Below are positions 34,586 through 36,170 of a stretch of 64,000 nucleotides of DNA, one piece after another. Numbering within the stretch: position 1 is the first letter of the stretch; each line of letters starts with the position of its first letter. The position numbers and the translations under genes are program-made. The notes under the pieces were generated by a model. The model saw only the letters and a list, made by a program, of their open reading frames with translations, was not told the origin of the DNA and ran no database searches. This DNA comes from Flectonema sp. DT1601 (lineage: Eukaryota): NCBI GenBank assembly GCA_964019425.1, contig OZ025791.1, positions 620,001 through 684,000 on the forward strand, written 5' to 3'.

Positions 34586-35156
34586 TTGTGTGTTTTAATA
34601 ATTCAGCTGGGAAGAAAGAAAGAAAGAAATAACTGTGATAAACACCGAATGAAAAACAAAACAAAAAAAACTATTAAAAAAAAAGTTTTTAAAGGAATAC
34701 AAAATATGTTATGAGAATAAAGGATTTGCATACTCTGGTTTGTTTTAAAAAACTAACCAGAGTTGGAATCGTGTAATTGTTATTTAAAGGAAATAAACAG
34801 CTTTTTCCGGAATAAGGCTTTTCAAAAAAGAAAAAAAGAACATAAAAACACCCTTATCTCTAAGGAATACTTTAAAGAAAAAAGGGAAAACCTCTAATTC
34901 AACAAAAATAGTTTGCGAAATCGCCAACTCCCTACAAAAAAAAGTTGTCCACCAGGACTCGAACTTGACCCAAAAATTTGGCTTGCGGCGGGTTTTTTGT
35001 TTTTTAGCCTACCAAGCGGGAAGAGTGCAAGGGTGGCTTGCGTCCGCCAAATTCTTGGCGGGACGCAAGCCCCCCCAACCCCCCCAAGGGGGGGGGGAGC
35101 CCCTAATAAAAGCCCGCCTGTTCCGTACAAAGTCCAACTTGAAAAAACAAATTTGC

Positions 35157-35161
35157 AACTG

Positions 35162-35193
<32 letters not shown>

Positions 35194-35537
35194 TTCTAAT
35201 CAAAGACGCGCGCGCATGAATGGACTAATGAGATTCCTTCTGTCCCTACCTACTATCTGGCGAACAGCAGTCAAGGGAACGGACTTGAAACTGTCAGCGG
35301 GGAAAGAAGACCCTGTTGAGTTTGACTCTAGTCGGGTGTAGTTATAGGTGGGAGGTTTACCAACAATGAAATACCACTACTCTTATCGTCGCTTTACTTA
35401 TCCAATGATGGGGGAACGGCAGCTGCCTCTTCGGAGGTTAGGGTTTCGGACTCGTAGCTTTTCCGATTCCAGCGACAAACGGGCTTCGGCTCGACCCCTC
35501 GTTTGGAGACACCAGTCAGGTGGGGAGTTTGGCTGGG
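35157..35537 (+). pseudogene. Captured, internally deleted 28S (LSU) rRNA fragment
   Basis: ATGACTCTCTTAAGGTAGCCAAATGCCTCGTC, CAGCGGGGAAAGAAGACCCTGTTGAG, TGAAATACCACTAC and GTCAGGTGGGGAGTTTGGCTGGG occur in LSU order. Confidence 0.9.
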
Positions 35538-35895
35538 AGGAGGGCCACATTGCGGCTTCTAAGTCACGAAACCTACATCAATGATGAGGATCGTTAAGCC
35601 ACATTTCTAAAGGTCAGGCTTTTACTAACGTGAGAATTTCTGTTCTCGATGGTTCTAATGTGTCTGACAAAAATTACCTAATTTGGAATGCTGCTTGAAG
35701 TCTGGTGAATTTTGGTTGGAGGTCTTAGTCTCACTGGTGAACTGCACAGTAACATTTTAAAGTGATCGATCACACGGGAGGGGTCTTGGTGATTTATTGC
35801 AACGGGAATATGTCTCAACTCGACCAGTGGGTGATCAATCCGCCCTTTGACTATGTTTTGGTCACATTTTCCGTCATTACGAAAAAGAGAAAAAA

Positions 35896-35970
35896 GGATG
35901 TCACGGGGTTCGAACCCGAGACCTCCGGGTCATGATTCGGCGGTCATAACCAATAAACCACCGGAGCTCC
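35896..35970 (-). pseudogene. Degenerate tRNA-like sequence (CAT at anticodon position) inside the TIR element
   Basis: A box TGGTTTATTGG, B box GGTTCGAACCC, then a T-run; acceptor and anticodon stems pair poorly. Confidence 0.6.
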
Positions 35971-36170
35971 GAAAATTCTGAAATTTTTCCCGTCATGTTG
36001 GGTTGTTTCGAGCGGTTAAAATTTTTGTGATGAGTTGGCGATTTCGCAAACTATTTTTGTGGAATTAGGGGTTTTCCCAAGAAAAAAAATAAAAACAGGA
36101 AACCATAACAGAAGAGGAGCACTACATATGAATTTTAGTTAAAAAAAGGGAAAAGAAAAAAAAATCAGAA

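What the first reader, a model, noticed from the sequence alone, without database searches (positions are those of the whole stretch)
34884..36078. Pack-MULE-like transposon whose cargo is rRNA and tRNA-like sequence
Seen: 47 bp G-starting TIRs and a 9 bp TSD (A-rich, so weaker evidence). Inside are ~380 bp of deleted 28S rRNA on the plus strand, a tRNA-like unit and a GC hairpin (35036-35070). Known: 9 bp TSDs with long TIRs indicate Mutator, and Pack-MULEs usually capture protein-gene fragments. The fragment starts just upstream of CTCTCTTAAGGTAGC, the I-PpoI site and R2 retrotransposon insertion region. Inference: capture during repair at a cleavage-prone rDNA site. Minus-strand read-through would give antisense rRNA, and copies would scatter decoy target sites.
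Basis: partly seen in the sequence, partly recalled or inferred. Interest (0 to 1): 0.7.

Follow-up and report, generated by a model that had tools for sequence, protein, structure and literature searches.

The report
Mini-transposon carrying scrambled ribosomal DNA
In the genome of a marine flagellate (likely a diplonemid), a 1.2-kb stretch with the ends of a cut-and-paste transposon holds a damaged piece of the large ribosomal RNA gene and tRNA-type promoter boxes, likely picked up as passengers during DNA repair, and such elements could explain the thousands of stray ribosomal fragments reported in a related species.

Summary
The anatomy is real: 57-bp inverted ends (52/57; first 47 at 45/47) starting GGG, an exact 9-bp A-rich duplication, about 380 bp of LSU rRNA (Rfam E 3e-36) with a 21-nt deletion absent from 10 of 10 intact genes, a GC hairpin and a tRNA-like unit. 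The host is a diplonemid by protein kinship. New here: a second tRNA 3' half with terminator at the left end, a perfect A box/B box/T-run on the right unit with a lost cloverleaf, and moderate evidence that the next 340 bp hold further LSU micro-pieces, three of them inverted. Best reading: a non-autonomous Pack-TIR element (Mutator more likely than Merlin, not settled) that captured rDNA and tRNA-gene DNA by template switching. The cleavage-site story is not supported: the endonuclease site is intact and the fragment starts upstream of it. No sibling copy, transposase, empty site, host rDNA or read support could be obtained, so copy number and any function are open. Its value is a cheap test of whether TIR elements carry the ~3,600 unexplained 28S pieces of Diplonema papillatum.

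The parts
34875..34883 (.). left 9-bp target-site duplication (A-rich)
34884..34940 (+). left terminal inverted repeat, starts GGG
34936..34969 (-). tRNA 3' half: T-arm with B box (0 mismatches) and T8 run; no A box (best candidate 3 mismatches)
35031..35075 (.). GC-rich hairpin, followed by C-run/G-run stem to about 35104; origin unknown, no LSU signal in 34941-35160 (61 of 150 shuffles score as well)
35157..35538 (+). sense LSU (28S) rRNA fragment with 21-nt deletion near 35335-35342, a 4-nt insertion near 35210 and single-base indels; almost no substitutions at invariant columns
   Evidence: alignment
35580..35647 (-). two collinear antisense LSU micro-pieces (35580-35608, 35628-35647), likely one inverted and deleted block
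   Evidence: moderate
35660..35678 (+). sense LSU micro-piece (hit at the same conserved site in 7 of 11 loci; weak alone)
35825..35852 (-). antisense LSU micro-piece (same conserved site in 9 of 11 loci)
35894..35967 (-). tRNA-like Pol III unit: A box 35960-35950, B box 35916-35906, T6 terminator at tRNA position 73; acceptor and anticodon stems do not pair
36022..36078 (-). right terminal inverted repeat
36079..36087 (.). right 9-bp target-site duplication
36171..41123 (-). upstream host gene (WD40/pentapeptide protein); its stop lies 92 nt from the element
33020..34585 (-). downstream host gene (ferroportin); ATG about 300 nt from the element's left end

Best explanation
The stretch is likely a non-autonomous cut-and-paste transposon (probably Mutator-like, Merlin not excluded) that carries a deleted piece of the LSU rRNA gene and two tRNA-type promoter and terminator fragments, likely copied in from host DNA by template switching during repair and likely riding as passengers. 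Shown: TIRs, 9-bp duplication, sense LSU piece with lesions, A/B boxes with T-runs, position between two minus-strand genes. Inferred: insertion by a transposase supplied in trans; DNA-level capture from rDNA and tRNA genes with several switches, which would give the deletion, small insertions and flipped blocks; a fairly recent event. Predicted: polycistronic Pol II read-through puts about 380 nt of antisense 28S into the precursor or 3' UTR of the WD40 gene, and the right unit may make a short (~75 nt) Pol III RNA. My odds on the vehicle: Mutator about 60, Merlin about 30, other 10.
For: TIR/TSD geometry. Interior GC 42-57% against 25-26% in the flanks. Deletion in the element but in 0 of 10 intact LSU genes, removing one strand of a helix whose partner strand is kept; diplonemid 28S has no significant indels (PMC9082867, passages). 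110 of 119 invariant columns match, and the misses sit at the indels and the end, so lesions are structural rather than slow decay. B box + T-run occurs 2 times in 64 kb, both inside the element; 0 of 500 shuffles give one. T-runs follow tRNA position 73 on the sense strand, as in genes, not mature tRNAs or poly(A) retrocopies (established knowledge). Extra LSU blocks lie in rDNA order with two flipped; top-three score 50 against 0 of 300 shuffles and 0 of 174 window tiles and 0 of 150 and 0 of 175 against whole loci. Gap-filling and template-switch capture is the model for animal Pack-TIRs (PMC8277862, passages). [quoted passage not shown]
Against: Only one copy seen: no sibling in the window, in metagenome contigs (0), in viral contigs (1 chance 17-mer) or in earlier scan notes; no host genome held. 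No transposase domain in the 18 window ORFs scanned or in six frames of the interior. The micro-piece signal is narrow (50 vs max 49), falls to 1 of 150 and 4 of 175 with the two closest loci only, was not significant against L002 alone (4 and 11 of 100) and was not seen by nhmmer or cmscan. The host's own rDNA was not available and the tree does not resolve the fragment's kin. Microhomologies at junctions could not be tested. The TSD is A-rich. No reads were laid, so assembly, empty site and expression are untested.
Confidence: 0.6

Rival explanations
1. The rRNA came from RNA: a reverse-transcribed 28S fragment (SINE28-like or processed pseudogene) landed inside an existing MITE, or was used as patch at a break.
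For: The fragment starts in a hairpin loop of the Rfam structure and ends at the P-loop (helix names recalled), both exposed RNA sites. D. papillatum has ~2,500 retroelement gene models and its authors liken the 28S pieces to SINEs/TRIMs. SINE28 exists in mammals.
Against: No poly(A) tail or inner duplication is visible around 35157-35538. The tRNA-like units keep genomic T-runs. Inverted blocks fit DNA template switching better. Two ends in loops has a high chance rate.
Confidence: 0.18
2. The rRNA and Pol III boxes are the fixed body of a multicopy family: the A/B boxes are kept because TFIIIC binding or Pol III transcription helps the element (insulation from or termination of polycistronic read-through), and the family spreads 28S pieces across diplonemid genomes.
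For: Both boxes are perfect and canonically spaced while the cloverleaf is lost, which suggests selection on the promoter. B boxes sit next to both ends. About 3,600 28S pieces of up to 10% gene length occur in D. papillatum, the size seen here. tRNA-like A/B boxes act as promoters in trypanosomatids (PMC4950102).
Against: No second copy was found. The trypanosomatid 104-bp divergent rule would put a start at about 36064, inside the right TIR and facing out, and the left unit has no A box, so nothing would transcribe the rRNA. The host is not D. papillatum (83% UGDH identity).
Confidence: 0.12
3. One reading: the piece was captured while a break made by a homing endonuclease or R2-like element at the 28S site was repaired, and copies act as decoy targets.
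For: The start lies within about 20 nt of that site. D. papillatum has ORFs annotated as 'R2 and jockey' polymerases. A cut followed by repair from an intact rDNA template could restore the site.
Against: The site is intact and preceded by rRNA sequence. No intron or homing endonuclease in diplonemid 28S in the passages read (0 hits for 'homing'). LSU has many known insertion sites, so nearness to one is not rare (recalled). One copy is no decoy population.
Confidence: 0.06
4. Assembly artefact: rDNA reads were joined into a MITE.
For: Homopolymer runs and small insertions in the interior; no public run holds half of the locus, so there is no outside support.
Against: Both TIRs and an exact duplication frame it; neighbouring ORFs of 1,650 and 1,825 aa are unbroken; the contig is 761 kb; a chimera would hold faithful, not deleted and flipped, rDNA.
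Confidence: 0.04

Closest known systems
Pack-MULEs (plants) and Pack-TIRs (animals; Tan et al. 2021, PMC8277862)
   Same: Non-autonomous TIR element of about 1.2 kb with 9-bp TSD and a few hundred bases of GC-richer captured host DNA; likely gap-filling or template-switch origin.
   Different: Cargo is structural-RNA DNA (28S, tRNA-gene ends), not protein-gene pieces; 'rRNA' and 'tRNA' occur 0 times in that paper's main text. TIRs are shorter than typical plant MULE TIRs. Host is a polycistronic protist.
Merlin / IS1016-like elements (PMC8101967)
   Same: Terminal GG, TIR length in range, 8-9-bp TSD, present in other Euglenozoa.
   Different: No Merlin transposase seen; Euglena families make 8-bp TSDs; the D. 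papillatum draft was scored negative.
SINE28, Cassandra/Ajax, 5S-SINEs (review PMC10946416, Table 2)
   Same: Mobile elements that carry rRNA-derived sequence or a Pol III promoter.
   Different: All are retroelements; here the ends are TIRs and the promoter is tRNA-type and terminated.
Pokey/mPok (Daphnia piggyBac)
   Same: The only DNA transposon in the review's table with rDNA-derived internal sequence; linked to the same 28S region.
   Different: Pokey inserts into 28S and carries spacer (IGS) repeats; this element sits outside rDNA and carries rRNA-coding sequence.
~3,600 dispersed 28S pieces of Diplonema papillatum (PMC10161547, section 8)
   Same: Same clade by protein kinship; same size class (up to 10% of the gene).
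   Different: Their vehicle was not characterised in the section read; no sequence comparison could be made.
Trypanosomatid tRNA-like A/B-box units (PMC4950102)
   Same: Conserved A and B boxes without a tRNA fold.
   Different: No divergent RNA gene at the 104-bp distance.

Membership tests
Mutator/MULE | 9-11-bp TSD | tested here: met
   exact 9 bp, A-rich, one copy; definition
Mutator/MULE | Long TIRs with G/C termini | tested here: inconclusive
   57 bp, GGG start: below the 100-500 bp typical of plants, inside the 20-95 bp of most arthropod MULEs
Mutator/MULE | MULE DDE transposase sharing the TIR | not testable with these tools
   no host genome; none in interior or in 18 window ORFs
Mutator/MULE | Several copies with different TSDs | not testable with these tools
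   one copy in 64 kb; 0 in metagenome contigs
Pack-MULE / Pack-TIR | Internal sequence derived from host non-TE loci | tested here: met
   LSU rRNA E 2.9e-36; parental host copy itself not available
Pack-MULE / Pack-TIR | Microhomology at capture junctions | not testable with these tools
   needs host rDNA and the empty element
Merlin | Terminal GG and TIR 24-462 bp | tested here: met
Merlin | 8- or 9-bp TSD | tested here: met
   9 bp
Merlin | DDE_Tnp_IS1595 transposase partner | not testable with these tools
   no host genome; D. papillatum draft negative
SINE (tRNA- or 28S-derived) | Pol III head read through into a body with an A-rich or repeat tail and variable TSD | tested here: not met
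   T6 directly after the tRNA-like unit; TIR ends
tRNA gene | Cloverleaf with paired acceptor and anticodon stems | tested here: not met
   ARAGORN 0, Rfam none, fold z -0.7
tRNA gene | A box, B box at about 44 nt, T-run terminator | tested here: met
R2 / homing-endonuclease junction | rRNA sequence interrupted or ending at the cut site | tested here: not met
   site intact, rRNA on both sides

The most novel reading that the evidence does not exclude
Diplonemids have a multicopy family of cut-and-paste elements built from ribosomal and tRNA-gene DNA. It is the vehicle of the thousands of dispersed 28S pieces in their genomes, uses tRNA-type boxes at both ends to insulate itself in polycistronic units, and injects antisense 28S RNA into host transcripts, where RNAi could tune the neighbouring gene.
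Probability: 0.15. Interest if true: 0.72.

Novelty: new variant of a known kind. Interest (0 to 1): 0.45.

Why it matters
DNA transposons that carry rRNA-coding sequence are missing from the one review table read (PMC10946416, Table 2), and non-coding TIR elements of diplonemids have not been catalogued (the D. papillatum authors say so). If siblings share the cargo, the element gives a mechanism for the ~3,600 unexplained 28S pieces in D. papillatum, and warns that such pieces can disturb rDNA copy counts and metabarcoding of one of the most abundant marine eukaryote groups. In a genome read as polycistrons, any insertion is transcribed, so antisense rRNA cargo has a direct route to affect a host mRNA. 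If it is a single copy, it is an unusual but inert repair scar.

Tried and rejected
No host genome is held, so no genome-wide TIR search. Public runs: 20 listed, 0 of 20 hold half of the locus, best share 0.17, the rest 0.05-0.08; none was laid, so these shares are not used as evidence. TIR 25-mer in metagenome contigs: 0. TIR 17-mer in viral contigs: 1 hit with no further likeness, rejected as chance. Earlier notes by place and sequence: nothing. Interior as a broken protein gene: six frames, 1 weak Pfam hit at E 0.12, rejected. Left part 34941-35160 as rRNA: cmscan stretched its alignment over it but 61 of 150 shuffles score as well; rejected. One further possible LSU piece at 35690-35746 (E 0.33, one locus): not counted. 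No other rDNA piece in the rest of the window. Profile HMM from 11 LSU loci found no micro-piece. Tree of the fragment with 10 LSU loci (L010 left out, too short) was unresolved. Small Rfam hits on the hairpins (6C, Cgb105, miRNAs) are below gathering scores, rejected. Divergent-promoter model from trypanosomatids does not fit the spacing. rRNA motif and tubulin scans of viral contigs: 0. Nine paper searches listed no paper whose title or abstract start describes a MULE or Merlin element with 28S cargo; only listings were seen for papers not opened. Additional file 1 of PMC10161547 (repeat section) was too large to read and may describe the 28S pieces.

Full report
Setting. The window is gene-dense, about 39% GC, and 21 of its 22 ORFs of 150 aa or more lie on the minus strand. 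The best named relatives of its UDP-glucose dehydrogenase are all diplonemids: Namystynia 86%, three Diplonema species 83%, Rhynchopus and Lacrimia 80%; kinetoplastid entries follow near 70%. The host is therefore a diplonemid, not D. papillatum itself; the contig is 761 kb. No whole genome is held. The element lies between a WD40/pentapeptide gene (stop 92 nt away) and a ferroportin gene (ATG about 300 nt away).

Ends. The inverted repeats span 57 nt at 91%, 45 of 47 at the tips, and begin GGG. Exactly 9 flanking bases are duplicated. The duplication is A-rich: 16 of 529 such A-rich 9-mers in the window have this sequence. It is the only one of 6 inverted-repeat pairs found window-wide that has a duplication. 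The TIR occurs nowhere else in the window, in metagenome contigs, or in earlier scan notes.

Sense rRNA piece. Rfam scores LSU_rRNA_eukarya at 143.7 bits. To compare with intact genes I fetched 11 eukaryotic LSU loci. The best local matches are L005 (266 of 320) and L008 (263 of 325); that these two are euglenozoan is my recall of signatures, and the tree is unresolved. The recognisable piece runs from about 35157 to 35538. Between two anchors it has 13 nt where 10 of 10 loci have 34-35; the lost bases are one strand of a helix that L005, L008 and L009 form and whose partner strand the element keeps. Diplonemid 28S is reported to lack significant indels (PMC9082867, passages). 110 of 119 invariant columns match, and the misses fall at the 4-nt insertion, the deletion and the end. 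So this is a non-functional copy with structural lesions and little point decay.

The cleavage-site idea. A break there would more simply leave an end at the cut. The start falls in a hairpin loop of the Rfam structure. I rate the model low.

In 35540-35880 short matches to conserved LSU sites appear: 35580-35608 and 35628-35647 (antisense, collinear), 35660-35678 (sense), 35825-35852 (antisense); they are hit at the same site in 3, 5, 7 and 9 of 11 loci, which are not independent. As blocks they follow rDNA order after the sense piece, with two flipped. The sum of the three best scores is 50; 0 of 300 shuffles and 0 of 174 window tiles reach it against the LSU part chosen after seeing the hits, and 0 of 150 and 0 of 175 against the whole loci, where the null maximum is 49. 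Against this: 1 of 150 and 4 of 175 with the two closest loci only, no significance with L002 alone, nothing by nhmmer or cmscan. I take it as likely, not proven. The left part shows no rRNA signal and no frame of the interior has a Pfam domain.

Pol III parts. On the minus strand 35967-35894 has a perfect A box and B box 44 nt apart and T6 starting at tRNA position 73, but no cloverleaf. A second B box with T8 and no A box abuts the left TIR. These are the only two B box + T-run sites in 64 kb, and 0 of 500 shuffles give one. Sense-strand T-runs belong to tRNA genes, not to mature tRNA, which points to DNA capture. In Leishmania such boxes drive a divergent snRNA 104 bp away (PMC4950102, abstract and sections 15, 20); here that start would fall inside the right TIR, facing out, so the boxes would not transcribe the rRNA.

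Mechanism. Most likely a transposase acting in trans placed a non-autonomous element in an A-rich spacer. Before or after that, repair of a break inside the element switched templates among rDNA and tRNA-gene DNA, giving the deletion, insertions and flips (model from PMC8277862, passages; inferred here). Because the region is likely read as a minus-strand polycistron (D. papillatum clusters), about 380 nt antisense to 28S would enter the precursor or the WD40 3' UTR; D. papillatum has RNAi genes. Any effect is untested.

Family. A 9-bp TSD fits Mutator (PMC3310237, passages; arthropod TIRs mostly 20-95 bp with G/C tips, PMC13359780, passages). It fits Merlin as well: GG ends, 24-462-bp TIRs, 8-9-bp TSDs, found in Euglena, Bodo and Perkinsela (PMC8101967, passages and section 12). 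D. papillatum has MULE-like ORFs and scored negative for Merlin in a draft (supplement rows), which tips the odds to Mutator. No partner transposase could be sought, so I file it as a Pack-TIR, family open.

Novelty. The review of rDNA-TE links lists rRNA-derived cargo only in retroelements, plus spacer repeats in Pokey (PMC10946416, section 11 whole and section 8 part 1 of 3). Nine searches listed no report of this combination (listings only), but Repbase-type entries and subscription papers are outside that library. An unchecked scan note describes a hAT MITE with 28S cargo in a marine animal, which suggests such capture recurs and is not unique. D. papillatum has about 3,600 28S pieces of this size class with no vehicle named (PMC10161547, section 8 whole; its Additional file 1 could not be read). 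MITEs are suspected as a source of diplonemid introns (PMC12621601, passages). PMC6379663 (passages) offers another capture route, by paired elements; a matching TSD on both sides argues against a fresh hybrid.

Verdict. A real element of a known kind with an uncommon cargo, in a group whose non-coding transposons are uncharted. One copy, no reads and no host genome limit the claim. Interest 0.45.

Noticed in passing
window 20940-21157: 218-bp MITE with about 30-bp TIRs bounded by TA, Tc1/mariner-like.
   Followed up: partly
window 1-1412, 4024-5923, 25742-27857: Three intergenic arrays of the same composite repeat with periods near 210 and 350 bp at 93-98% identity, in both sides of different genes; satellite or unclassified mobile repeat.
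   Followed up: no
window 18324-24616: Three tandem sulfotransferase copies (91-97% alike); the first is broken by a rearrangement in which 19266-19479 is the 214-bp inverse of 22397-22610.
   Followed up: no
window 20045-20200 and 20585-20750: Twice-repeated intergenic unit with internal inverted repeats, MITE-like by eye.
   Followed up: no
window 36171-41123 (-): The 1,650-aa protein shows by eye an N-terminal stretch with ADP-ribosyltransferase-like R/S/E motifs and a P-loop before the pentapeptide and WD40 repeats, an NLR-like layout; Pfam reported only the repeats. Motif reading is from memory.
   Followed up: no
window 49400-57600: About 8 kb without an ORF of 150 aa, rich in long A and T runs.
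   Followed up: no
window 30043-31977 (-): Leishmanolysin (GP63, Peptidase_M8) family gene, E 9e-70.
   Followed up: no
L003-L018; G001: Ten prokaryote genome records hold eukaryotic LSU contigs; G001 (0.9 Mb) has 17 matches to the eukaryotic SSU model, so it appears heavily mixed with rDNA of other organisms.
   Followed up: partly
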